Positions 54,329-64,000 are shown, counted from the stretch's first letter. The stretch is 64,000 bases of DNA from a virus (IMGVR_UViG_3300033120_000868:79494-143493); one strand, 5' to 3'. Program-made: numbers and translations. Notes: generated by a model not told the origin, from the sequence alone.

Positions 54329-54589
54329 TTAAAAAACCTCATCTAACTTTATCTGCTCATACCACTGTAAGTTAGAAACATCAACAACTCTCTTCTGCAT
54401 TACAATTAAATCTTTTAATCTTGACAAAGAATACCATTTTCTATTTATCCAATATCCTAAACAATTATTATTATCTTTTAATTCAACTGACTTAGGTATG
54501 TTCGTTATATCAAACAATTGTTTTTTGCGAAAAGAAAAAGTTTTTCTTTCAATAATAAAATAGTTTGAATAAGTTATAATATATTTCAT
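54329..54589 (-). CDS. small hypothetical protein flanking the cassette array (intI position, but not an integrase)
   Basis: 86 aa, GYWINRKWYSL; no tyrosine-recombinase motifs. Confidence 0.65.
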   Translation of the reverse strand: MKYIITYSNYFIIERKTFSFRKKQLFDITNIPKSVELKDNNNCLGYWINRKWYSLSRLKDLIVMQKRVVDVSNLQWYEQIKLDEVF

Positions 54590-54619
54590 TTGTCAAGGTT
54601 TCTTATTAGTGTTTATAAA

Positions 54620-54658
54620 GGTTAGTATAGGTGAGTTTCGCTTAGCCAATAGTTGTAA
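54620..54658 (+). other. putative attI-like primary recombination site
   Basis: GTTGTAA at 54652 matches the TTACAAC end of cassette 1 but has no upstream hairpin arm. Confidence 0.55.
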
Positions 54659-54678
54659 AACAGTTTAGAAAATACTTT

Positions 54679-55209
54679 ATGAAAATAAAAGAATCAGATA
54701 TAGAAGTTATAGATTTCATATTAAACTTAAGCCTATCTAAAGAAGTTTCTTTACAAGATTTACTTGAAAATAATATAATTGATTCACAACAAGGCGAGTT
54801 TCCTGAAATAAACTTATGGTACAATCCGAAAGATGAATTTGCTAGATATTTAAAAATACTTGAAAAATACAATTTATGTAACATAGTACGCTATATTGGT
54901 GCAGAAACTGCTATTAAAAATACAAACACTTCAATAACTCTCAACAGAGGTGGTTTTAAGCCAATATTTGAAAAAATACAACTTGATGAAGAAAAAGAAC
55001 AAATTGAATTTGAAAAATCTAAAATAGATTTAAAACTTAATAAATGGCTCTTAAAGACTAAATGGCTTCCACACTTTATTACTTTCATTTCTTTACTATT
55101 CGCTGTTTACGTTTATTTCGATTCTAAAAACGATTCAAAAAAATTAGAAGAACGAATAGAAAAGTTAGAATCGAAAATACCAATCCCGAAAAATGAGTCC
55201 AAAAAATAA
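54679..55209 (+). CDS. cassette 1 gene: membrane protein, canonical cassette orientation
   Basis: 176 aa, one TM near C-terminus flanked by coiled coils; only credible + strand gene after 14.8 kb. Confidence 0.8.
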   Translation: MKIKESDIEVIDFILNLSLSKEVSLQDLLENNIIDSQQGEFPEINLWYNPKDEFARYLKILEKYNLCNIVRYIGAETAIKNTNTSITLNRGGFKPIFEKIQLDEEKEQIEFEKSKIDLKLNKWLLKTKWLPHFITFISLLFAVYVYFDSKNDSKKLEERIEKLESKIPIPKNESKK

Positions 55210-55264
55210 CCTTTGTTTCTTTGGGACAATCTTTAGACAATGCATACTTAATAATCTTAATCAT
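55124..55264 (-). CDS. small antisense membrane peptide in cassette 1 (46 aa, not in track)
   Basis: MIKIIKYALSKDCPKETKVIFWTHFSGLVFSILTFLFVLLIFLNRF. Confidence 0.4.
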   Translation of the reverse strand: MIKIIKYALSKDCPKETKVIFWTHFSGLVFSILTFLFVLLIFLNRF

Positions 55265-55330
55265 AATAAAATAATTTTAATACTTGACACTTAACAAAGG
55301 CGGACAAGTTAAACCTTAATAAAACCGATT

Positions 55331-55466
55331 TTACAACAGCGGTTTGTTTCAAGTGGCGGTTTAGTGATAATCCGAAAACGCCGTTGTAAAATTTAATAAT
55401 TAGTTTATATTTGTAATGGCTTGGTGCTGAAATCGCCACCTGAAAACAAGCCACAGAACGTTATAT
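55331..55466 (+). repeat. attC-like site 1
   Basis: TTACAAC..GGTTTGTTTCAAGTGGCG / CGCCACCTGAAAACAAGCC..GTTATAT. Confidence 0.85.
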
Positions 55467-55472
55467 GATAGC

Positions 55473-55718
55473 TTACTCAACTTTGTGGCTAAAAAGTTCA
55501 TTGTAATATTTTTCAGCTCTTTCTTCTTGTGTTATGTTATATCCGTAAAGTTCCCAATCAGCACCATCGTTGAAAGAAGTTTTTATTTGCTCTTTTTCTT
55601 TATTAATTTTATCTTCTACCATATCAATAATTAAATTAACAGTGGTTTTAATAAAAGGATTTTCGACTATTTTAGAAACTTCTTCTAATTCATTAAGTAA
55701 TTCTTGCATTGCTGTCAT
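55473..55718 (-). CDS. cassette 2 gene, phage-type small protein
   Basis: MTAMQEL..KEKEQI...F.DG..AEKYYNE. Confidence 0.75.
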   Translation of the reverse strand: MTAMQELLNELEEVSKIVENPFIKTTVNLIIDMVEDKINKEKEQIKTSFNDGADWELYGYNITQEERAEKYYNELFSHKVE

Positions 55719-55741
55719 AATAATTATGTTTAAAAGCCATC

Positions 55742-55874
55742 ATATAACAATGCATTGTAGCAATTGTGGTTTAAGGCTTAATTAATAATTTGTTTTTACT
55801 TGGTTAGTTTTAGTCTTAATTTGAAGCATTGTGCAAGTCTAACCACAACTGACTACAATGCTTTAACGTTATGT
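55742..55874 (+). repeat. attC-like site 2
   Basis: ATATAAC..GCATTGTAGCAATTGTGGTT / AACCACAACTGACTACAATGC..GTTATGT. Confidence 0.88.
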
Positions 55875-56180
55875 GATATTTTCCAAAACGACTAAATCAG
55901 AAATATCATCTAAATAATAAACAGTTTGTTCTCCGTCATACCATTGCGGTTCTATAGGTACATTTAGACTAATTGATAATTTGTATTCTTCTGTATTATT
56001 ATATTTTGTTTGTGGTGGGTATATAAAACTTATAATTCCAGTAAACCATTCGTTTCTTTCTTTTTCTTTGAATGCCACAACAGTATTTTCTTTACAGTTA
56101 ATCAAAACATCACATAACAGTGGTTTTGACTTATTGCCGTTTTCGGCTTCATTTAATGTTGGTTTTGTACTTTCTGACAT
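55869..56180 (-). CDS. cassette 3 gene (starts inside attC3)
   Basis: probable start MSESTK in attC loop; stop = TTA of R box. Confidence 0.7.
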   Translation of the reverse strand: MSESTKPTLNEAENGNKSKPLLCDVLINCKENTVVAFKEKERNEWFTGIISFIYPPQTKYNNTEEYKLSISLNVPIEPQWYDGEQTVYYLDDISDLVVLENIT

Positions 56181-56246
56181 TGTTTTTAATTTAAAGTTGG
56201 TCTTGTATTTAATCGGCAACAAGACAAAGCCACAGGAGCGTTATGC
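56112..56246 (+). repeat. attC-like site 3
   Basis: ACATAAC..TGGTTTTGACTTATTGCCG / CGGCAACAAGACAAAGCCA..GTTATGC. Confidence 0.88.
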
Positions 56247-56252
56247 ACAATA

Positions 56253-56717
56253 TTATAGAATACCATACAAATCATAATGATTTTCCAAAAACCAATTATA
56301 GTGTTCTGCAATCATATTTTTATTATATCCTAAAAAAGTAGTGATTTGTGCATGACCTCCTGTATCTCTGTTTGGTATATTTATGGTCAATGAACCATTT
56401 TTACCCTTTTTCCAAGTTATTTTATGAAAATATAAATCTTCTCTTTTTCCTAAAATATATCTTGAAAACTTACTTAATTGTTGTTGAACTAGAAAATCAT
56501 TAATATTTTTTAACTCAGGTATATACCCTAAATCTATAATATTTTTAGCTGAATCTCCGTTTTCAAAGATAAATCTTCCATTATATCCAATAAGTTTCAA
56601 TCTACCATATTGACAATTAAAATAAATCCCGTAAGGAAGATATTTAAGTAAAATACTGTGCATAACAGCGGTTTTGTCGCATTGTGGTACTTGGGTATTT
56701 TTTGAAAGTTCAGTCAT
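56253..56717 (-). CDS. cassette 4 gene (starts inside attC4)
   Basis: 154 aa; YLPYG..., WFLENHYDLYG. Confidence 0.75.
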   Translation of the reverse strand: MTELSKNTQVPQCDKTAVMHSILLKYLPYGIYFNCQYGRLKLIGYNGRFIFENGDSAKNIIDLGYIPELKNINDFLVQQQLSKFSRYILGKREDLYFHKITWKKGKNGSLTINIPNRDTGGHAQITTFLGYNKNMIAEHYNWFLENHYDLYGIL

Positions 56718-56795
56718 AATTTTAAAATTTAGTTATTATTTGTTAAGTTTGGTCTTAAATCGCCACAACGACGACAAAGCCACAGGGCGTTATCA
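56660..56795 (+). repeat. attC-like site 4
   Basis: GCATAAC..GGTTTTGTCGCATTGTGG / CCACAACGACGACAAAGCC..GTTATCA. Confidence 0.88.
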
Positions 56796-56981
56796 CTCAG
56801 CTTGTAGAACACCTAAATCATCGATGTTTAGTATTGTAAATCTATCTTGCTTTTCAAATAATTGTTCTCCAACTTCTTGTGCAATTTCTTTTTCTGAAAA
56901 GCGTAAAGTTTTTCTATTAGCACCATATAACGCTTTTTTAGTGTCTAAATCAATAATAATCCATTTTCTTTCTTTTTTCAT
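56793..56981 (-). CDS. cassette 5 gene
   Basis: 62 aa filling the cassette. Confidence 0.7.
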   Translation of the reverse strand: MKKERKWIIIDLDTKKALYGANRKTLRFSEKEIAQEVGEQLFEKQDRFTILNIDDLGVLQAE

Positions 56982-57006
56982 CTTGTTTGTATTTAAAAAG
57001 CCGAAG

Positions 57007-57138
57007 TGATAACATACGCTAACCGCTATTCAGGCTTTAGGTTAAATTTAAAGTGTGTTTTGTGTCTGTAAGATTTGTAATAATCCGAAATTTCAGTCCT
57101 TACTTTTCCTGAACATCGGTTAGCGTCCGCCGTTATGT
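57007..57138 (+). repeat. attC-like site 5
   Basis: TGATAAC..ACGCTAACCGCTATTCAGG / CCTGAACATCGGTTAGCGT..GTTATGT. Confidence 0.88.
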
Positions 57139-57139
57139 A

Positions 57140-57355
57140 TCATTTTTTAAATTGACATTTTTCGTATATTTTTGCAAGTGGTGTTATAAAATCTTTACCA
57201 GTAAATAAATATGGTATAGTTATTACAGCAGTATACGGTATATTTACAAGCAAAAATATTAACCACAGCATCATTTCATAAAAACGATACATAACAACAG
57301 ATATACTCAATTTTGAGTTCTGTGTTTCATTCAAGTTTTCTTCTTTTTCAATCAT
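57140..57355 (-). CDS. cassette 6 gene, small membrane protein (starts inside attC6)
   Basis: hydrophobic core. Confidence 0.65.
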   Translation of the reverse strand: MIEKEENLNETQNSKLSISVVMYRFYEMMLWLIFLLVNIPYTAVITIPYLFTGKDFITPLAKIYEKCQFKK

Positions 57356-57418
57356 TTTATTTATTATTTAAATTATTACTATTTAATTCAAAACTAAGTA
57401 TATCTGCAATCGTTAACC
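57289..57418 (+). repeat. attC-like site 6
   Basis: ACATAAC..CAGATATACTCAATTTTGAGTT / AATTCAAAACTAAGTATATCTG..GTTAACC. Confidence 0.85.
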
Positions 57419-57658
57419 ACAATTGCATATCAGAAGTTTAATAGACGCTATTGTATTTGATTCTGGCTTTTCAAATTCAGTTACAAATTCCAATCCTTTT
57501 TTATCTAATTCATCAAACAAAAAGTTGTCAATATCTTGGTAAGAATTAAACCATTTCATCCCGTTTCTATTGCTTTTTTCAAGTTCGGATAAAGCAACTG
57601 TGGTTAACACAGGTTTTGTGCTATTGCTTGGCTTGTTGTTTTCTGAATGTTTATTCAT
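57413..57658 (-). CDS. cassette 7 gene (starts inside attC7)
   Basis: stop = TTA of R box. Confidence 0.7.
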   Translation of the reverse strand: MNKHSENNKPSNSTKPVLTTVALSELEKSNRNGMKWFNSYQDIDNFLFDELDKKGLEFVTEFEKPESNTIASIKLLICNCG

Positions 57659-57736
57659 AATCTGTAATTTTTAGTGTTTAATTTAATGTTTTAGTTTTCT
57701 TTTACGCAACAGACACAAAGCCTGAGGACGTTATAA
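57602..57736 (+). repeat. attC-like site 7
   Basis: GGTTAAC..CAGGTTTTGTGCTATTGC / GCAACAGACACAAAGCCTG..GTTATAA. Confidence 0.88.
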
Positions 57737-57746
57737 GAAATAGCTA

Positions 57747-57974
57747 CTAATCGTTTTCAAAATCAAATTCTTCTTCAATAATATCTAATAGACTTGTGGC
57801 TATATCTCCGTTATGTATTCTAAAAGCTATCTTTTTAGCTTCAGAAACTATATATTCAGCGTCATCTTCGCTTATAAGTTCAAAAACCGCTGGGTCTGTA
57901 ATGTCATTTGCAATTAAAATAGCTTGACACCATCTTTTCGCTATTCTTTTTAAAACTAATTTATCTTTTACCAT
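57747..57974 (-). CDS. cassette 8 gene
   Basis: probable start MVKDK (frame open back to 58058 inside attC8). Confidence 0.7.
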   Translation of the reverse strand: MVKDKLVLKRIAKRWCQAILIANDITDPAVFELISEDDAEYIVSEAKKIAFRIHNGDIATSLLDIIEEEFDFEND

Positions 57975-58003
57975 AACTTTTAATTTAAATTTACCGCTAC
58001 TTC

Positions 58004-58081
58004 TTATAACAGGTGTTTGTAAATACCAGCCGAATATACTATGCGTGTAGGCTGGCATCTACAAGCACCAAAACGTTAGCA
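58004..58081 (+). repeat. attC-like site 8 (short, 78 bp)
   Basis: TTATAAC..GGTGTTTGTAAATACCAGCC / GGCTGGCATCTACAAGCACC..GTTAGCA. Confidence 0.88.
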
Positions 58082-58091
58082 AACATTGTTA

Positions 58092-58421
58092 CTATTTCGT
58101 TAAAAAGAAATCATATCCAACAAACGGCAAAGAAGCTCTAAATTTAGTATCTTTTGGAACATTCCATTTTTTTATCAATCTAACAACTGATTTTAATGAA
58201 TAAGCATCGTTAAAACCATCGTGTGACATAGAATAATACACAGATGTATTTCCTGTTTTTTCCCATTCTCCTGTTTGGGTATTAAACCATAAATTATTTT
58301 CAACTGGTTCTATCCAAAATGGTCTTTTCATTCTTCTTTTAGAACCATCTTCATATTTAGAATGAATTGTAACGCTTTTAAAAATCCTTTGCCCTTTAGG
58401 TTTACTTGAAATAATTTTCAT
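58092..58421 (-). CDS. cassette 9 gene
   Basis: probable start MKIISS. Confidence 0.7.
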   Translation of the reverse strand: MKIISSKPKGQRIFKSVTIHSKYEDGSKRRMKRPFWIEPVENNLWFNTQTGEWEKTGNTSVYYSMSHDGFNDAYSLKSVVRLIKKWNVPKDTKFRASLPFVGYDFFLTK

Positions 58422-58453
58422 AATATTTTTTATTTTAAATACCCACAACGATT

Positions 58454-58588
58454 TGCTAACAGCATATTTATTCAATTGTGGCTTTTGGGTTAATTAAATG
58501 TTTATTGTGTGTTTGTAATGTTAATTTTTAAATTGATAGTTCGTTTTGTGCTTATCCACAACTGAAATAAATACCCAAAACGTTAGTG
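58454..58588 (+). repeat. attC-like site 9
   Basis: TGCTAAC..TATTTATTCAATTGTGG / CCACAACTGAAATAAATA..GTTAGTG. Confidence 0.85.
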
Positions 58589-58927
58589 ACAATTGCAGAC
58601 AAGACGTTCAATAAGATAATCACTATCTTTTTTAACAATAGGAATTATCAAATTTTTAATCTGTTTTTTTTGTTTTTTATTCATTTTAGGATTTACTGGT
58701 TGTATTATTTCCCCCGTATTAATCATAATTAATATTCCTTTGTCCTTATGTTGTACAGAAGAATCTAATGATTTCCCATTGAACCATTTTGCAGAAAAAC
58801 ATTCAGGATTTGATTTTAAAATTTCAATTACCTTTTCTATAAATACTTGTTCGTGAGCATCCAAAGGAGAACAACTGTCACTAACAGCGTGTATAAAAAA
58901 TGGCTTTTTTAGGCTTAATTTAAACAT
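58583..58927 (-). CDS. cassette 10 gene (starts inside attC10)
   Basis: stop = TTA of R box. Confidence 0.7.
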   Translation of the reverse strand: MFKLSLKKPFFIHAVSDSCSPLDAHEQVFIEKVIEILKSNPECFSAKWFNGKSLDSSVQHKDKGILIMINTGEIIQPVNPKMNKKQKKQIKNLIIPIVKKDSDYLIERLVCNCH

Positions 58928-59010
58928 AATTTTGTGTTTTTATAATTAGTAATAATTCAATAATTTAGGCGTACTTGCACGCCACTTCTTATACACGCAA
59001 AACGTTATAG
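58879..59010 (+). repeat. attC-like site 10
   Basis: CACTAAC..GCGTGTATAAAAAATGGC / GCCACTTCTTATACACGC..GTTATAG. Confidence 0.88.
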
Positions 59011-59030
59011 TTAATGGCTACAAATTGTTT

Positions 59031-59429
59031 TTACATACCTATATTTTCAATTCCAAGTAACTCAATAAGTATATGTATCTCTTTACTACCCCATTCGTTT
59101 TCTATATTAAATATAATTTCTTTGTCAGATAAAATTTCTTGCATATAATTATCCTTTACTTTTACACCCCACCAATTACCGTCTGATGCAAGAGTTAAAA
59201 TATCTGAATTATCACGAATTGTTTTAATCTTATCATAAAAAGACATTTGGTTAAATCTTTTAGCCATTTCTACGTATTGCTCTAAAGTGAATTTTCTTTT
59301 ATAATTATTGTTCGTGCTTTTAGCTCTCATATAATCATCATATTCTCTAGTACTCATACCTCTTGGGTCTTGTGTATCATAAAAATCACTTGCTTTAACA
59401 TCTCTGTAATCAATTCTTTTGTTTTTCAT
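59031..59429 (-). CDS. cassette 11 gene, paralog of backbone gene 14832-15095
   Basis: shared T.EQY....RFN.MSF..K..TI..N..I.....DG. Confidence 0.75.
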   Translation of the reverse strand: MKNKRIDYRDVKASDFYDTQDPRGMSTREYDDYMRAKSTNNNYKRKFTLEQYVEMAKRFNQMSFYDKIKTIRDNSDILTLASDGNWWGVKVKDNYMQEILSDKEIIFNIENEWGSKEIHILIELLGIENIGM

Positions 59430-59457
59430 AATTTCAGTTTTTAAAAACCGCCACTAA

Positions 59458-59590
59458 CTATAACAGTAGTTTGTAGCAATGGCTGGCTTGTTGTTTAATT
59501 TAATGTTTTTGGCTTATCGGTATTGTAGTTTTTAAACCAAAACTACTCGCTTACTTGCACGCCACTGCAACAAGCTACAAAACGTTAGGC
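59458..59590 (+). repeat. attC-like site 11
   Basis: CTATAAC..GTAGTTTGTAGCAATGGC / GCCACTGCAACAAGCTAC..GTTAGGC. Confidence 0.88.
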
Positions 59591-59821
59591 GATATGCCCT
59601 ACACCCTTACTGTCAGCAAATTGGTATCCGTGTCTTTGATTACTATATTTCTTTTCTCGTCCTTGCATACCATCTGTCCATACTTTACCACAACACTTGC
59701 AACGATAGGCACGTCTCCCATCAAATGCTCTACCTTTTTCAGGGTTAGTTGTTTGACAAGAAGCACATCGCCTAACATCGGCTTTGTTCAATACCTTATC
59801 TTCTGTATTATCGTTTTTCAT
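59585..59821 (-). CDS. cassette 12 gene, Zn-ribbon protein (starts inside attC12)
   Basis: CASC...YRCKCCG; stop = TTA of R box. Confidence 0.7.
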   Translation of the reverse strand: MKNDNTEDKVLNKADVRRCASCQTTNPEKGRAFDGRRAYRCKCCGKVWTDGMQGREKKYSNQRHGYQFADSKGVGHIA

Positions 59822-59892
59822 GTTATTTAAATTTTAAAAATTACGTTTAGTTTTCATAAGTCGGCACTAAACAAAGCCGAGAACCGTTAGCA
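59770..59892 (+). repeat. attC-like site 12
   Basis: GCCTAAC..TCGGCTTTGTTCAATACC / GGCACTAAACAAAGCCGA..GTTAGCA. Confidence 0.88.
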
Positions 59893-59896
59893 GTAA

Positions 59897-60139
59897 TTAA
59901 TCCTCGAACTTAACAAATTTGAATTTATACCCACCTTTCTTAATTCCAAACTTCTCACACCATCTTTCAAACCAATTTGATTTAATGATTATTATTTGCC
60001 ATTTTTCTGCATAATCTAACGCATTTTGTTCTGTAATTAATCCATCTTTTTCAAGGCGTTCTAAAACTAAGTCTTTTACTTGATTTGCGTTTAGTGTATA
60101 TTCTTCTAAAGAAATTAACATTCCATCCATTTGTGCCAT
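59897..60139 (-). CDS. cassette 13 gene
   Basis: 80 aa filling the cassette. Confidence 0.7.
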   Translation of the reverse strand: MAQMDGMLISLEEYTLNANQVKDLVLERLEKDGLITEQNALDYAEKWQIIIIKSNWFERWCEKFGIKKGGYKFKFVKFED

Positions 60140-60161
60140 AATATTTGTATTTTATAACTAC

Positions 60162-60293
60162 TGCTAACAACGGTTATACAATAGTTGGGTTAATTGTTTA
60201 ATTTAAAGTCTGTTTTGTGCTTTTAAAATCTGTGATAAATCAAAAGTTAAGGAGTACCAACCCCAACCATCGTATAGCCGTCGAACGTTATGT
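60162..60293 (+). repeat. attC-like site 13
   Basis: TGCTAAC..ACGGTTATACAATAGTTGGG / CCCAACCATCGTATAGCCGT..GTTATGT. Confidence 0.88.
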
Positions 60294-60299
60294 GCCATT

Positions 60300-60509
60300 T
60301 TAAGACACACTATCCTTCAACTTTTGCAGTTCGACAATTAAGTCATCTACTTGTTGAATTAAGTTCATTTTGGCTGACCAATCATTTGCTCCATATCCTG
60401 AAAATTCAGCGCGGAAATGACCCCAAGCGTGATTTTTAGAACTTAATTCGATTTCGGCTTCACAACTTTGAGCCTTTTGTTTACCATCGTTTCTTAATTT
60501 TATTTCCAT
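60300..60509 (-). CDS. cassette 14 gene
   Basis: 69 aa filling the cassette. Confidence 0.7.
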   Translation of the reverse strand: MEIKLRNDGKQKAQSCEAEIELSSKNHAWGHFRAEFSGYGANDWSAKMNLIQQVDDLIVELQKLKDSVS

Positions 60510-60538
60510 TTTATTGTTGATTTATTAATAAAAACGGC

Positions 60539-60634
60539 ACATAACAAGGGTTTTGCGTAATAGCCCTATCAAGTGTCGTGGTTAATTTTAAGTTTTTACT
60601 AAGGGCTACTACGCAAAGCCCCGATACGTTATCA
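60539..60634 (+). repeat. attC-like site 14
   Basis: ACATAAC..GGGTTTTGCGTAATAGCCCT / AGGGCTACTACGCAAAGCCC..GTTATCA. Confidence 0.88.
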
Positions 60635-60859
60635 CTCAGCTTTTGACGAACTAAATAAATAAGCTAATTTCTCTGGAATAAGCATTTTTACTTTCACACT
60701 TGTTCCATTCCAAAAACTTTCTTCTACGTCATACGACTGAATTATTCCGTTGTGGTTTTCTATTTTTTTTTCTAAATCACGTGCTTGAGATTTTGTTTTA
60801 CATACTGCTGAAAAAAGTAAATATTTAATTCCGTTTACTTCATAAATTAATTGTTCCAT
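60632..60859 (-). CDS. cassette 15 gene
   Basis: 75 aa filling the cassette. Confidence 0.7.
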   Translation of the reverse strand: MEQLIYEVNGIKYLLFSAVCKTKSQARDLEKKIENHNGIIQSYDVEESFWNGTSVKVKMLIPEKLAYLFSSSKAE

Positions 60860-60880
60860 TTTGTGTGAATTAAGCCGAAG

Positions 60881-61012
60881 TGATAACAGTGGTTACACAA
60901 TATTGCCACTTCTGGAGTTATTTAATGTTGTTTTTGTACTTGTTTTGTTGGTTGTTTAATCGAATATTTTCGCTTACTTTTGGCAACATCGTGTAGCCAC
61001 AAAACGTTATAA
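60881..61012 (+). repeat. attC-like site 15
   Basis: TGATAAC..GTGGTTACACAATATTGCCA / TGGCAACATCGTGTAGCCAC..GTTATAA. Confidence 0.88.
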
Positions 61013-61249
61013 CTCATTTTTAGAAAGAGCTATGTTTACAATTGATATTGCTTTTTTAATCTGAGATATACTTTTAAATTCAGGCGTTATGTCAATTAAT
61101 TCTTCATCAGTGAGTATTTCACATAAATAATCATATTCTTCATCATTTATTCTCCAAAGTTGTTTATACATATCATCAAACGCATCTGTAATACCGCCAC
61201 ATCCTTTGTAAACTATATCTGTTCTATTTTTCCTTTCAAATCGTGTCAT
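61007..61249 (-). CDS. cassette 16 gene
   Basis: stop = TTA of R box. Confidence 0.7.
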   Translation of the reverse strand: MTRFERKNRTDIVYKGCGGITDAFDDMYKQLWRINDEEYDYLCEILTDEELIDITPEFKSISQIKKAISIVNIALSKNEL

Positions 61250-61261
61250 AATTAAAACGAG

Positions 61262-61394
61262 TTATAACAGTGGTTTTGCTCAATGGCTGTTTTTGGCAAA
61301 ACTTATACACTGTTTTGTGTTTGTAAAATTTGTTTTTAATTCAATAATTTAGGCTTGCTTTTCAGCCACTAAGCAAAGCCACAGGACGTTAACA
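61262..61394 (+). repeat. attC-like site 16
   Basis: TTATAAC..GTGGTTTTGCTCAATGGCTG / CAGCCACTAAGCAAAGCCAC..GTTAACA. Confidence 0.88.
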
Positions 61395-61441
61395 GATATG
61401 GTATGAAGTAGATACCGCATACCATTCTGAAAACTACCTTT

Positions 61442-61810
61442 TTATTTTTTAAACAACCAATTTGATTTTTCTGTACTTTTAAATTCAGATAAATAATTTT
61501 GAAATTGTTCATAGCTACAATCTAATATTTCTTTAGCATCAATTGAATGAGAATAATCAATATTATCTAATGATTCCAAAGTGAACAACATATTGTCTTG
61601 CCATTTAACACCATCAATAGACAATAAAACTTCTGACCTAATTTGTCTTTGATAGACAATTTTATAACCTTCCCACCACTTTGAAAATCTATTTTCAAGT
61701 TCTTCTTGTTCTGAACATTCTAAATTTGAAGCATCGCTCGATGATTGCAAAAATAAATCTAACGGATTTAATTTTGCTTGAATTTCTGTTGTATTAATTG
61801 TTGTTTTCAT
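61442..61810 (-). CDS. cassette 17 gene C
   Basis: 122 aa. Confidence 0.65.
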   Translation of the reverse strand: MKTTINTTEIQAKLNPLDLFLQSSSDASNLECSEQEELENRFSKWWEGYKIVYQRQIRSEVLLSIDGVKWQDNMLFTLESLDNIDYSHSIDAKEILDCSYEQFQNYLSEFKSTEKSNWLFKK

Positions 61811-61841
61811 ATTTTTTTAGCACTTATCCTTGCAATTGGTT

Positions 61842-62156
61842 TTAATTATTTAAAAATTCAGATGCTTGTATTATTTCATATTCTTTTTCATATTCAGGGC
61901 TTGTTATTCTACCACAATTTACATAAGTAATATTGCCGTCTATACTTAATGAAAAAATACTTTGTTGTGTTGTAGAAAAAAAGGGGTCATAAAAAATAGG
62001 TCTAATATTTCCTATTTGTTCACGATACCAATCTCTATGCCAAGACATTCTTTTACACTTATCATTTGGGTTAATATCTTTTCTTCTTTCCCATTCTTCA
62101 AAAGAATTAAACTGAATTAATATTTTTTTATCTTCAAAATTTTCGAGTTTTTTCAT
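61842..62156 (-). CDS. cassette 17 gene B
   Basis: 104 aa. Confidence 0.65.
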   Translation of the reverse strand: MKKLENFEDKKILIQFNSFEEWERRKDINPNDKCKRMSWHRDWYREQIGNIRPIFYDPFFSTTQQSIFSLSIDGNITYVNCGRITSPEYEKEYEIIQASEFLNN

Positions 62157-62160
62157 AATA

Positions 62161-62436
62161 CTAATAAGTTAAGTTAGAAAAAGTTTTACCTTCGTTGTTT
62201 ACGATATAGTTTTGTTCATCTTTCCATAAAGGATAAGTTTCTTTTGCATCTTCTGAAATAACAAAAGCATAACAACCACCTACTTCAATTTTTTCTTGAC
62301 CTTCTAATTGAAAAAAGTCAACATACATTTTAAAAAAAGCTTCTTCGTTTTTTTCTTTTCTAATAACTGAATAGCTTTCTCCTAAGTTCTGATTGAACTC
62401 CATTTTTACACTTGTAATTTTTCTTAATGTGTACAT
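62161..62436 (-). CDS. cassette 17 gene A
   Basis: 91 aa; MYTLR.I...N..LG..Y...YIVN..GKTF. Confidence 0.7.
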   Translation of the reverse strand: MYTLRKITSVKMEFNQNLGESYSVIRKEKNEEAFFKMYVDFFQLEGQEKIEVGGCYAFVISEDAKETYPLWKDEQNYIVNNEGKTFSNLTY

Positions 62437-62508
62437 AAATTCATATATTTATTTATTGCCTACTCTATTAGCTTTTCGGCTTCCGCTATATTTTAAAATA
62501 ACCACATC

Positions 62509-62641
62509 TGTTAACACTGCATTGTAGCAATTGTGGGTTAAGGCTTAATTAATAATTTGTTTTTTACTTGTTTTGGTTAGTTTTAAATCGAAACATTGTG
62601 CTAGTATAACCACAACTGACTACAATGCTTTAACGTTAGGT
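62509..62641 (+). repeat. attC-like site 17 (body nearly identical to attC2)
   Basis: TGTTAAC..GCATTGTAGCAATTGTGG / CCACAACTGACTACAATGC..GTTAGGT. Confidence 0.88.
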
Positions 62642-62647
62642 GCAATG

Positions 62648-63136
62648 CTACGACCACACCGCATTTTGATACTTCTTTTCATATTTGACAAATTTGTGAA
62701 TGAATCCGTAATCGTGGCAGACAAATTTATTACCTATCCAACCAAAATTATCTGCCTTGACATCTGTAAAGAAATAAGGCACTTTTTTTGGGCGTTCTTT
62801 ATCTAACTGTTTAGTCCGTTCCATTATTAATACTTTACCGTTAGGACTGCACCAGTGAATCGGAGCAAACCATTCTTTTACCCAAGCAAGATTTCCTTTT
62901 AATCCTTGAATTTCATCCCAAAGTAAAAATTCAGCGATGTTGCAATCTGTACTGTTTGGTTCAACTTTTACAACCATTTTATTTGGGTTCATATTGAACT
63001 CGTAAACACTTCTGTAAGAACCACTACCCAATTTTTCACCACAAAGAGTAAGTATTAAATCTGTATTTACATCTTGTAATTTACTTAAAGTAGAAACTTC
63101 ATCTACATTATTTAATCTATTTGTTAATCTAATCAT
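62648..63136 (-). CDS. cassette 18 gene, minimal protein-kinase-like protein
   Basis: LGSGSYRSVY, VVK, E, LIME, DVKADNFG, HDYG. Confidence 0.75.
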   Translation of the reverse strand: MIRLTNRLNNVDEVSTLSKLQDVNTDLILTLCGEKLGSGSYRSVYEFNMNPNKMVVKVEPNSTDCNIAEFLLWDEIQGLKGNLAWVKEWFAPIHWCSPNGKVLIMERTKQLDKERPKKVPYFFTDVKADNFGWIGNKFVCHDYGFIHKFVKYEKKYQNAVWS

Positions 63137-63174
63137 TTTTTAAGGTTTAAAACCGTTTAACAAAAAAGCACTGC

Positions 63175-63307
63175 ACCTAACAAGGTATTGCCAAAAGTGG
63201 GGCTTTCGTGCTTTCTATTATCTTCTGTACTCATATTTAACATTTGTTCTTTTAATTAACTTTGGTGGTTTAATGCCCCACCTTCGGCAATACCCAAAAC
63301 GTTATAA
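63175..63307 (+). repeat. attC-like site 18
   Basis: ACCTAAC..GGTATTGCCAAAAGTGGGGC / GCCCCACCTTCGGCAATACC..GTTATAA. Confidence 0.88.
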
Positions 63308-63313
63308 GCCATT

Positions 63314-63514
63314 TTAACGACCACGTAACTCATTACGTTCTTTAACTTCTATTTCGTCTGTATAATCTTCAAACAATAGCTTGCCAATTTTATCCCAAGA
63401 AACAAAAGTTTCCTTTGATGGCATTCTATTTGGTTTCAATCTTGCAGGAATATTTGTTTTTAAAATTACTCCTTCTTCTTTAGCTGTATAGCCTGTAATA
63501 ATTACTTTTTGCAT
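63314..63514 (-). CDS. cassette 19 gene
   Basis: 66 aa filling the cassette. Confidence 0.7.
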   Translation of the reverse strand: MQKVIITGYTAKEEGVILKTNIPARLKPNRMPSKETFVSWDKIGKLLFEDYTDEIEVKERNELRGR

Positions 63515-63559
63515 TGTTTTTAAATTAAATTGTTAAGCCAAACACGAATAAAAAACGGC

Positions 63560-63655
63560 TTATAACAGTGGTTTGGCAAAATACCGCCACAAGCCTTTGT
63601 ACTAAATTTGAACATTGTGCAAGGCGGCACTTCGCCAAGCCACCAAACGTTAGCG
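63560..63655 (+). repeat. attC-like site 19
   Basis: TTATAAC..GTGGTTTGGCAAAATACCGCC / GGCGGCACTTCGCCAAGCCAC..GTTAGCG. Confidence 0.88.
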
Positions 63656-63856
63656 GTAATGCTTTGATAAATACTTTTCGACAATATCTATCATTTGTAA
63701 TTCGTCATTGTATATATCGTAAAATCCATCAACATCTTCTAAATGTGGTCTGCTGGTTAATTTTTTAACTATTTCTTTAGCGTGGTAATTAGCACTAACC
63801 ATAACACCAGTTTTGCAAGATTGCTTGTTTTGTGATTTTTTGGAAACTTTAGTCAT
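63650..63856 (-). CDS. cassette 20 gene (starts inside attC20)
   Basis: stop = TTA of R box. Confidence 0.65.
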   Translation of the reverse strand: MTKVSKKSQNKQSCKTGVMVSANYHAKEIVKKLTSRPHLEDVDGFYDIYNDELQMIDIVEKYLSKHYR

Positions 63857-63931
63857 AATTTTAAGTGTATTTTGTATTTGTTAATTTTAGGTTTTTAGTT
63901 CGCAACCTCGCAAAGCCAAAAATCGTTATAG
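63799..63931 (+). repeat. attC-like site 20
   Basis: CCATAAC..TTTTGCAAGATTGC / GCAACCTCGCAAAG..GTTATAG. Confidence 0.8.
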
Positions 63932-63937
63932 CAAATG

Positions 63938-64000
63938 CTAGAAATCAATATCCGTTACAATAAATGTTTCATTACAATCTTCGCAAGTAATTTCTATATC
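63938..64000 (-). CDS. cassette 21 gene, C-terminal fragment (Zn-ribbon-like)
   Basis: ...DIEITCEDCNETFIVTDIDF* runs off the window end. Confidence 0.55.
   Translation of the reverse strand, partial: DIEITCEDCNETFIVTDIDF

What the first reader, a model, noticed from the sequence alone, without database searches (positions are those of the whole stretch)
54652..63805. Near-invariant A/C mismatch 11 nt from the crossover in the extended terminal inverted repeats
Seen: complementarity between cassette ends extends about 13-16 nt, beyond the 7-bp R box. It breaks at position 11, where the cassette start has A and the reverse complement of the end has G. Examples: GTTATATGAT-A-GC vs -G-GC (c2); GTTATGCACA-A-TATT vs -G- (c4); GTTAACCACA-A-TTGC vs -G- (c7). 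The same holds in c3, 6, 8, 10-14, 16-19 and the otherwise mismatched c20. In c1, 5, 9 and 15 the same A/G pair appears with a one-base bulge. Positions 5-10 vary freely but covary. On the bottom strand this is a G-T (G-U) wobble. Inference: an additional recognition determinant outside the classical attC core, or a footprint of the cassette-creation mechanism (ssDNA or RNA intermediate).
Basis: seen in the sequence. Interest (0 to 1): 0.8.

Follow-up and report, generated by a model that had tools for sequence, protein, structure and literature searches.

The report
Fixed G·T wobble in phage cassette arms
Every gene cassette in this phage's integron-like array has ends that pair for about 15 bases, with one mispair at position 11 (G·T on the exchanged strand) that is never a normal pair; the same holds in about 60 other phage contigs but not in bacterial integrons, so it is probably a recognition or strand-choice mark for a Xer-like recombinase.

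Summary
All 20 cassettes (54652-63925) start with G-TTRRRY-NNN-A, and the reverse complement of each end reads G at that place. Sixteen pair without a gap and four carry a one-base bulge. Three to four more pairs follow.

It holds in a larger sample. In 169 cassettes from other IMG/VR contigs, a 181-kb ENA contig and cultured Flavobacterium phage stinky9-1, position 11 is never Watson-Crick. Positions 5-10 and 12-15 use all four pair types.

It is absent from 186 Vibrio VCR cassettes and 37 cassettes beside IntI genes in other Gammaproteobacteria. There pairing fades after 9-12 bases, as Bouvier 2009 states.

The same cassettes in different contexts place the crossover at G|TT. That makes window + the top strand, so the mispair is T·G on the bottom strand, which also carries the genes. 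That strand's hairpin is about 4 kcal/mol more stable than its complement; VCR sites show no such bias.

Related phages encode a Xer-like recombinase beside an attI-like site, and it lacks the IntI-specific insertion. This contig has no tyrosine recombinase.

Function is inferred, not shown. Earlier notes of this scan report the same system in at least eight other genomes.

The parts
54652..64000 (+). Integron-like cassette array: 20 complete cassettes plus the start of a 21st, running off the contig end. Window + is the top strand by integron convention; 19 of 20 genes lie on the - strand.
   Evidence: Site coordinates. Orientation.
54600..54651 (+). Array-proximal flank. It ends ...GCCAATA before the first G|TT and has no hairpin partner arm. 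It resembles the attI-like TA(C/T)ATATA(R)TA|GTTA found about 50 nt from the recombinase start in related phages.
   Evidence: The likeness is weak and no recombinase gene follows here.
54652..55459 (+). c1 (gene 54679-55209 on +, the only sense-oriented one) with its site body 55338-55459
   Evidence: A11 at 54662, partner C at 55326, 1-nt bulge type
55460..55867 (+). c2 with site body 55749-55867
   Evidence: A11 at 55470, partner C at 55738, ungapped
55868..56239 (+). c3 with site body 56119-56239
   Evidence: A11 at 55878, partner C at 56108, ungapped
56240..56788 (+). c4 with site body 56667-56788
   Evidence: A11 at 56250, partner C at 56656, ungapped
56789..57131 (+). c5 with site body 57014-57131
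   Evidence: A11 at 56799, partner C at 57002, bulge type
57132..57411 (+). c6 with site body 57296-57411
   Evidence: A11 at 57142, partner C at 57285, ungapped
57412..57729 (+). c7 with site body 57609-57729
   Evidence: A11 at 57422, partner C at 57598, ungapped
57730..58074 (+). c8 with short site body 58011-58074 (64 nt)
   Evidence: A11 at 57740, partner C at 58000, ungapped
58075..58581 (+). c9 with site body 58461-58581
   Evidence: A11 at 58085, partner C at 58449, bulge type
58582..59003 (+). c10 with site body 58886-59003
   Evidence: A11 at 58592, partner C at 58875, ungapped
59004..59583 (+). c11 with site body 59465-59583
   Evidence: A11 at 59014, partner C at 59454, ungapped. 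A groundwater-metagenome contig aligns to exactly 59003-59587.
59584..59885 (+). c12 with site body 59777-59885
   Evidence: A11 at 59594, partner C at 59766, ungapped
59886..60286 (+). c13 with site body 60169-60286
   Evidence: A11 at 59896, partner C at 60158, ungapped
60287..60627 (+). c14 with site body 60546-60627 (82 nt)
   Evidence: A11 at 60297, partner C at 60535, ungapped
60628..61005 (+). c15 with site body 60888-61005
   Evidence: A11 at 60638, partner C at 60876, bulge type. Same arms as c5 but a different gene.
61006..61387 (+). c16 with site body 61269-61387
   Evidence: A11 at 61016, partner C at 61258, ungapped
61388..62634 (+). c17, a three-ORF cassette, with site body 62516-62634
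   Evidence: A11 at 61398, partner C at 62505, ungapped. A contig from another study aligns to 61387-62645.
62635..63300 (+). c18 with site body 63182-63300
   Evidence: A11 at 62645, partner C at 63171, ungapped
63301..63648 (+). c19 with site body 63567-63648 (82 nt)
   Evidence: A11 at 63311, partner C at 63556, ungapped
63649..63924 (+). c20 with site body 63806-63924. Its R-box arms do not match each other, but A11 and its partner are kept.
   Evidence: A11 at 63659, partner C at 63795. The same cassette follows a different site at contig position 543.

Best explanation
Shown: the region is an array of mobile gene cassettes separated by attC-like hairpin sites, with the crossover at G|TT. 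When a cassette is excised and circularised, its two ends join the site's R box into a stem of about 15 bp. On the exchanged (bottom) strand, which here is the window - strand and also the gene-sense strand, that stem has a T on the 5' (cleaved) arm, the 10th nucleotide 5' of the AA^C cleavage point and so about one helical turn away. This T always faces a G, rarely a C or T, and never an A. Inferred: this fixed non-Watson-Crick T is a structural mark inside the roughly 11-bp binding arm of a Xer-like tyrosine recombinase. Related phages encode that enzyme next to such arrays; this contig does not. Together with two other fixed G·T pairs in the site body, the mark makes only the folded bottom strand a good substrate. 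The top strand has A/C mismatches at these places and folds about 4 kcal/mol less well, and duplex DNA has ordinary pairs there. In this reading the wobble does the job that extrahelical bases, read by the IntI-specific domain, do in classical integrons. The phage recombinases lack that domain. The arm can only form with both of a cassette's own ends, so the mark should matter for insertion of the excised circle rather than for folding within the array.
For: All 20 cassettes in the window show the feature. It recurs in 169 cassettes of other IMG/VR contigs: 129 are G/A without a gap, about 25 are bulge forms, and the exceptions are bulge variants or non-cognate pairs. It also recurs in cultured Flavobacterium phage stinky9-1 and in a 181-kb ENA contig that carries the recombinase. 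In 110 clean cassettes the 5'-arm T is present in 110 of 110, facing G in 104, C in 5 and T in 1. Positions 5-10 and 12-15 use all four Watson-Crick types, with 70 distinct hexamers. Wobbles are at most about 5% at other arm positions. The crossover and strand are set by identical cassettes with different neighbours, whose homology breaks at C|GTTA on both sides, and by contigs from other metagenomes that break at the same points. The bottom strand is more stable in 119 of 124 cognate sites, by a mean of 4.2 kcal/mol, of which the R arm alone gives about 1.0-1.4. VCR sites differ by 0.4 the other way. The feature is absent from 186 VCR cassettes and from 37 cassettes beside IntI genes in 13 other genomes. 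A Xer-like recombinase lies about 50 nt from an attI-like site at the top-strand start of arrays in five contigs. It lacks about 50 residues of VchIntIA's extra domain. The partial sequence preference G8, A10, A11, T12 in the outer arm fits a protein-contacted arm.
Against: There is no binding or recombination experiment for this family, so the recombinase-site pairing rests on gene neighbourhood only. This contig has no tyrosine recombinase, so activity here would need an enzyme supplied in trans. The wobble adds only about 1 kcal/mol of strand bias. C or T can replace the G, so a G·T geometry as such is not strictly required. Position 11 is one of several fixed non-Watson-Crick positions and may not act on its own. 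In the array the extended arm is non-cognate and cannot form, so any role is limited to the circular form, whose existence I did not observe (only assembled contigs were available).
Confidence: 0.55

Rival explanations
1. The wobble is a passive thermodynamic device. It and the other G·T pairs only make the bottom-strand hairpin more stable than the top-strand one, which has A/C mismatches. No protein reads position 11 specifically.
For: The bottom strand is more stable in 96% of sites, by about 4 kcal/mol, and the R arm contributes about 1. VCR sites, which rely on extrahelical bases, show no such bias.
Against: A purely energetic bias could sit at any arm position, yet wobbles are at most about 5% at positions 5-10 and 12-15 and about 95% at 11. 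T/C and T/T, which destabilise both strands, are tolerated there while A-T never is. The T is invariant, and a bulged or mismatched T often lies next to it.
Confidence: 0.2
2. The A/G difference serves in duplex DNA. It makes the two R arms unequal (outer triplet AAT at R', AGT at R''), so that a duplex-binding Xer-type enzyme acts only at L'-R'. The mispair in the hairpin is a by-product.
For: The outer R' arm consensus TTA-K-NN-G-Y-A-A-T resembles the XerD arm of E. coli dif (TTATGTTAAAT, from my own knowledge). Crossovers are only seen at R'.
Against: Strong compensatory covariation of both arms and of the site stems shows selection on intra-strand pairing, which duplex recognition does not need. 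The four pairs beyond position 11 would have no purpose.
Confidence: 0.12
3. The mispair is a footprint of cassette genesis or of common descent, inherited from the way cassettes are made (for example an RNA intermediate with G·U) and not selected now.
For: Unrelated genes can share identical arm pairs (c5 and c15; the same arms occur in L086 and L066). This hints that arms are copied as modules.
Against: Ninety-one distinct 5-15 arm sequences keep the mispair while all flanking pairs vary with compensation. One transition would give a normal, more stable pair, and none is seen. The arms of one site in the array come from two cassettes, so no array transcript can contain this pair.
Confidence: 0.06
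4. The mispair reflects a constraint from overlapping gene signals (stop codon, start region, promoter) at the cassette ends.
For: Stop codons often lie in or near the R box, and the arms overlap gene ends.
Against: In the window the stop codon lies 1, 4, 8, 11, 13, 17, 27 or 54 nt from the crossover (ORF ends against starts). Position 11 is therefore coding in some cassettes and non-coding in others. The feature is fixed relative to the crossover, not to the gene.
Confidence: 0.02

Closest known systems
Classical integron attC sites recombined by IntI (class 1 attC such as attCaadA7; Vibrio VCR with VchIntIA; Bouvier 2009 PMC2727003, Nivina 2016 PMC5027507, Nivina 2020 PMC7439510)
   Same: RYYYAAC / GTTRRRY boxes and an imperfect palindrome that folds as a hairpin. 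G after AAC and T before GTT on the bottom strand. Crossover at G|TT. A cassette is a gene plus the site downstream on the top strand. R-box pairing of a cassette's own ends extends beyond 7 nt. In related phages the array starts at a simple attI-like site beside a divergently placed recombinase gene.
   Different: Pairing runs to about 15 bp with an obligate T·G at position 11. In VCR and other IntI arrays it fades after 9-12 with no fixed mispair. There are no single extrahelical bases. Instead there is a 4-nt bulge on the 5' arm, fixed G·T pairs and one C/A mismatch. The bottom strand is about 4 kcal/mol more stable, against no bias in VCR. Genes lie on the bottom strand. The linked recombinase is Xer-like and lacks the IntI insertion.
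Clusters of attC sites without integrase (CALINs) reported in phage genomes, including Polaribacter phage P12002L (Qi et al. 2023, PMC9892861)
   Same: Arrays of attC-type sites in lytic phages of Flavobacteriia without an integrase. P12002L carries short sites of this family, and one cassette between them keeps the G·T next to a bulge and a T/T mismatch. The paper's P12002L_attC1 oligo has the AAC-G-NNNN-stem...T-GTT form, in the same bottom-strand orientation as I derive.
   Different: That paper detected two sites per phage with integron tools. It did not describe extended arms, fixed wobbles, reversed genes or a Xer-like partner. Its family member (attC1, cloned with 7-nt boxes only) was the one site that gave no verified IntI1 junction.
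XerCD acting on the folded single-stranded attP(+) of CTX phage (Val et al. 2005; from my own knowledge, not read here)
   Same: A Xer-type tyrosine recombinase uses a hairpin folded from one specific DNA strand. Mismatches and bulges in that hairpin define the substrate, and only one strand pair is exchanged.
   Different: That system uses host enzymes and a single integration site. It has no cassette arrays and no reported fixed wobble in the outer arm. Membership was not tested.

Membership tests
Integron attC site | Terminal boxes RYYYAAC (R'') and GTTRRRY (R') flanking an imperfect inverted repeat that folds as a hairpin | tested here: met
   20 sites. Folds. Consensus structure with compensatory changes in 17 of 24 pairs.
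Integron attC site | Crossover at G|TT of R', so that a cassette is TTRRRY...gene...site...G | tested here: met
   The same cassette occurs in L062, L072 and L080 with different neighbours, and homology ends at C|GTTA on both sides. c20 occurs in two contexts. Contig pieces and loose ends in other metagenomes break at these points.
Integron attC site | Two or three extrahelical bases (typically G and T) on the R''-L'' arm of the bottom strand | tested here: not met
   Folds and the alignment show no single-base bulges. The only asymmetry is a 4-nt bulge on the 5' (R'-L') arm, plus a C/A mismatch and G·T pairs.
Integron attC site | Self-pairing of a cassette's own ends limited to 9-11 consecutive nt (Bouvier 2009) | tested here: not met
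   Here there are 10 pairs, a T·G, then 3-4 more pairs. The controls behave as published.
Integron (complete) | IntI integrase carrying the integron-specific additional domain, adjacent to attI | tested here: not met
   No tyrosine recombinase is found in the 143-kb contig. In related phages the adjacent enzyme scores 145-158 bits against the TIGR02249 cut-off of 265 and lacks about 50 residues of VchIntIA.
Integron (complete) | Cassette ORFs on the top strand, read from a promoter at the integrase end | tested here: not met
   19 of 20 ORFs lie on the bottom strand (with the orientation). The arrangement is the same in stinky9-1 and L300.
CALIN (cluster of attC sites lacking integrase) | Two or more attC-type sites close together with no integrase nearby | tested here: inconclusive
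   It is met descriptively: 20 sites and no recombinase in the contig. IntegronFinder's own attC model could not be run here, so formal detection is untested.
Xer/dif-type site | Two roughly 11-bp arms around a 6-8 bp central region, bound by Xer recombinases | not testable with these tools
   The geometry is compatible: arm at positions 2-12, six nt between the cleavage point and the GTGG stem on the cleaved strand. Binding cannot be tested here.

The most novel reading that the evidence does not exclude
The invariant non-Watson-Crick T at arm position 11, with the other fixed G·T pairs, is the obligatory code by which a Xer-like phage recombinase recognises the folded bottom strand of an excised cassette. 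This enzyme has no IntI extra domain and its sites have no extrahelical bases. That would be a second, independent solution to strand-specific recognition of single-stranded recombination sites, working in a widespread phage gene-cassette system.
Probability: 0.4. Interest if true: 0.75.

Novelty: new variant of a known kind. Interest (0 to 1): 0.6.

Why it matters
Integron attC sites are the textbook case of recombination sites recognised by shape rather than sequence. Their strand choice is attributed to extrahelical bases read by an IntI-specific domain. Here a large family of attC-like sites in Flavobacteriia phages keeps the boxes and the crossover. It replaces the bulged bases with fixed wobble pairs, one of them in an extended R arm that only exists in the excised circle. 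If that wobble is read by the linked Xer-like enzyme, it gives a simple, mutable handle for testing how a minimal tyrosine recombinase selects a folded strand. It would also give a diagnostic signature for finding these phage cassette arrays, which current integron tools mostly miss, and design rules for a second structure-specific recombination tool. If it has no effect in assays, it remains a reliable annotation marker for the family.

Tried and rejected
1. I first took the - strand as the top strand, because the genes are on it and the extra bases then lie on the R''-L'' arm. Cassettes seen in different contexts overturned this, as did the conserved AAC-G...T-GTT shared with classical bottom strands.
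2. Searches for an integron integrase or any tyrosine recombinase in the contig found nothing.
4. A strict RYYYAAC/GTTRRRY detector found too few sites in IntI-adjacent regions. A relaxed detector with a 7/7 R-box filter was used instead. Some of its sites may be false, but the filter does not touch positions 8-20.
5. Pfam on ten cassette ORFs gave nothing usable.
6. Literature searches for attC together with wobble, or for phage attC arrays with Xer, returned no description of this feature.
7. I looked for a dyad-equivalent wobble in the L arm. Stem position 11 is G·T in only 30% of sites, and the fixed G·T at stem position 14 is not at the equivalent distance, so I dropped this.
8. Read laying had only assembled contigs. 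It cannot show circular cassettes, and joints with sides under 30 letters were ignored.
9. Stop-codon and promoter constraints were rejected because their offsets from the crossover vary.
Full report
**What is there.** The window is the last 64 kb of a 143,493-bp IMG/VR virus contig. From 54652 to the contig end lie 20 hairpin sites of 64-122 nt, each bounded by ...TAAC on the left and GTTA... on the right on the + strand. Between them are small ORFs, 19 of 20 on the - strand. Ten of these ORFs have no Pfam family. The contig encodes no tyrosine recombinase.

**The observation.** For each cassette I compared the first 24 nt after G|TT with the reverse complement of the 24 nt ending in the next ...AAC. 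In 16 cassettes the two read identically for 10 positions (c20 has R-box mismatches). They differ at position 11, A at the start and G in the reverse-complemented end, and agree again for 3-4 positions. In c1, c5, c9 and c15 the same A/G follows one extra T on the end-side arm. All 20 have A at start+10 and C as its partner on the + strand.

**Orientation.** Both strands read RYYYAAC...GTTRRRY, so polarity had to be settled by evidence.
- Cassette c20 occurs twice in the contig, after different site bodies (window 63649 and contig position 543).
- Among 189 cassette units from all contigs, five pairs of homologous gene regions share the site body on their right (0.89-1.0 identity) but not the one on their left (0.49-0.63).
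- One cassette is present in L062, L072 and L080 with different cassettes on both sides. Homology ends at C|GTTA on each side.
- Contigs from groundwater and freshwater metagenomes of other studies align to single cassettes of this array, with ends at the same points: 59003-59587, 61387-62645, 63649-63916 and 58075 onward. Loose ends fall 0-4 nt after the G of GTTA.

The mobile unit is therefore TTRRRY...gene...site...G on the + strand, as in integrons, and the + strand is the top strand. A tyrosine recombinase cleaves with its binding arm 5' of the cut. The exchanged strand is therefore the one reading RYYYAA^C at that junction, which is the - strand. This step rests on established enzymology, not on a test here. 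On that strand position 11 is T (5' arm) facing G (3' arm).

**Is it general?** A degenerate 17-mer from the site returned 120 IMG/VR loci. Chance alone would give tens of hits, but my structural scanner found arrays of the same sites in about 60 of them.
- In 169 cassettes from other contigs, the match between the arms is 62-100% at positions 1-10, 3% at 11, 63-78% at 12-15 and about 15-20% beyond.
- Nearly all exceptions are bulge variants that keep the G·T one step further out, or site pairs that are not cognate.
- In 110 cleanly paired cassettes from 39 contigs, the 5'-arm T is invariant. It faces G in 104, C in 5 and T in 1.
- Every other arm position from 5 to 15 uses all four Watson-Crick pair types, with 70 distinct hexamers at positions 5-10. 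Wobbles elsewhere are at most about 5%.
- The same holds in cultured Flavobacterium phage vB_FspS_stinky9-1, where 8 of the 9 units between its sites show it, 7 ungapped and one in the bulge form.
- It also holds in an independent 181-kb ENA contig.
- Polaribacter phage P12002L has short sites of the family; one cassette between them keeps the G·T next to a bulge and a T/T mismatch.

**Is it already in the classical model?** Bouvier et al. 2009 state that self-pairing usually extends beyond the 7-nt boxes to 9-11 consecutive nt. I found no paper linking attC sites with a wobble pair.
- In 186 distinct cassettes of Vibrio VCR arrays, the match falls from 84% at position 8 to 48-58% at 10-11 and to chance by 13. 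There is no fixed mispair and no resumption of pairing.
- In 37 cassettes beside IntI genes in 13 other gammaproteobacterial genomes, the match is 81, 67, 43, 43, 43 and 24% at positions 8-13.

The feature is specific to the phage family.

**Context of the wobble.** The site bodies carry further fixed non-Watson-Crick positions on the bottom strand:
- G after AAC facing T before GTT (20 of 20 here). My recollection of VCR and attCaadA7 sequences shows the same G and T there; Bouvier 2009 confirms only the G after AAC.
- A G·T or C/T with an invariant T at stem position 14 (145 of 159 sites elsewhere).
- A C/A mismatch after the GTGG/CCAC stem (99 of 159).
- A 4-nt pyrimidine-rich bulge on the 5' arm.

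There are no single extrahelical bases. With cognate arms, the bottom-strand hairpin is more stable than the top-strand one in 119 of 124 sites from other contigs and in 15 of 15 here, by a mean of 4.2 kcal/mol. The R arm alone gives 1.0-1.4 of that. VCR sites show no such bias (0.4 kcal/mol the other way).

**The likely enzyme.** In five contigs (L049/G001, G002, L091, L095, L300) a 266-287-aa tyrosine recombinase gene lies at the top-strand start of the array. Its start codon is about 50 nt from a conserved TA(C/T)ATATA(R)TA|GTTA, after which the first cassette begins, again with A at position 11.
- The protein scores best to archaeal XerA models and structures, but below the curated cut-off.
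- It reaches only 145-158 bits against the integron-integrase model, whose cut-off is 265.
- It lacks about 50 residues of VchIntIA where the integron-specific domain lies.
- Close relatives are common in metagenomes and are labelled only 'XerD'.

In Qi et al. 2023, the P12002L site that belongs to this family was the one phage site that gave no verified junction with IntI1. That construct carried only the 7-nt boxes, so this is a hint and not a test.

**Reading.** The two arms are permanent parts of one cassette and meet only in the excised circle. Each is replicated as an ordinary duplex (T:A at the start, G:C at the end), so the mispair is never repaired. One transition in either arm would make it a normal pair and a more stable stem. 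Such pairs are absent while all neighbouring positions have been replaced with compensation. This means selection against Watson-Crick pairing of this T. The T is the 10th nucleotide 5' of the scissile phosphate, on the cleaved strand. It lies inside an arm of Xer-like length (positions 2-12), whose outer part also shows a sequence preference (G8, A10, A11, T12). I therefore read it as a recognition or strand-choice mark for the Xer-like enzyme, doing the job of classical extrahelical bases. Confidence is about 0.55. The rivals are a purely energetic strand bias, duplex-level asymmetry of the two R arms, a relic of cassette genesis, and overlap with gene signals. They are weighed in their own sections; the last two fit the data poorly.

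**Limits.** Nothing here shows binding, cleavage or circles. The recombinase-site link is by neighbourhood. The window's own array has no recombinase and may depend on one supplied in trans. Scanner thresholds and the seed pattern bias the sample towards sites like those in the window.

**Prior notes.** Earlier notes of this scan describe the same system in at least eight other genomes. I reached the same reading from my own tests, and those notes are not independent evidence.

Noticed in passing
window 62457-62489 (-): The only Rfam hit in the window is a DUF805b RNA motif (48.7 bits against a cut-off of 35.6). It lies inside cassette c17, just upstream of ORF 62161-62436 (-), so a cis-regulatory RNA travels inside a phage cassette.
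   Followed up: no
window 61388-62634: Cassette c17 holds three consecutive ORFs (61442-61810, 61842-62156, 62161-62436, all on -), whereas the other cassettes hold one. A contig from another study carries this whole unit (61387-62645).
   Followed up: partly
window 63649-64000 and contig positions 543-893: Cassettes c20 and c21 at the contig end are repeated at the contig start behind a different cassette and site. This is either population heterogeneity in cassette order or an assembly break in a circular genome. The array probably continues from the contig end into the contig start.
   Followed up: partly
window 54679-55209 (+): c1 is the only cassette whose ORF (176 aa) lies on the top strand. 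It sits next to the attI-like end of the array.
   Followed up: no
window 55749-55867 and 62516-62634: The site bodies of c2 and c17 are nearly identical although the genes on both sides are unrelated. Conversely, c5 and c15 share identical arm pairs but have different genes and site bodies. Arms, bodies and genes seem to reassort.
   Followed up: no
window 63649-63805: The two arms of c20 do not match each other. Its end-side arm (GTTATGGTTAGTGC when reverse-complemented) is the arm of a different cassette seen in L015, and nearly the same arm occurs in L300. c20 may be a chimera or two fused cassettes.
   Followed up: no
contig positions 23397-25064 (outside the window; G000:C1): A second array in the opposite orientation has three full sites and two cassettes. 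Each cassette holds a convergent gene pair, and both keep the position-11 wobble.
   Followed up: partly
contig positions about 1037-1211 (outside the window): At the far end of the array the last site is only a half site. A - strand phage ORF reads through it and across the crossover, ending a few codons inside cassette c21.
   Followed up: no
window 54500-64000: Single cassettes of this array occur in runs labelled wastewater, freshwater, groundwater and aquatic metagenomes from about 15 studies (word shares 0.07-0.21). Only two of those runs were laid.
   Followed up: partly
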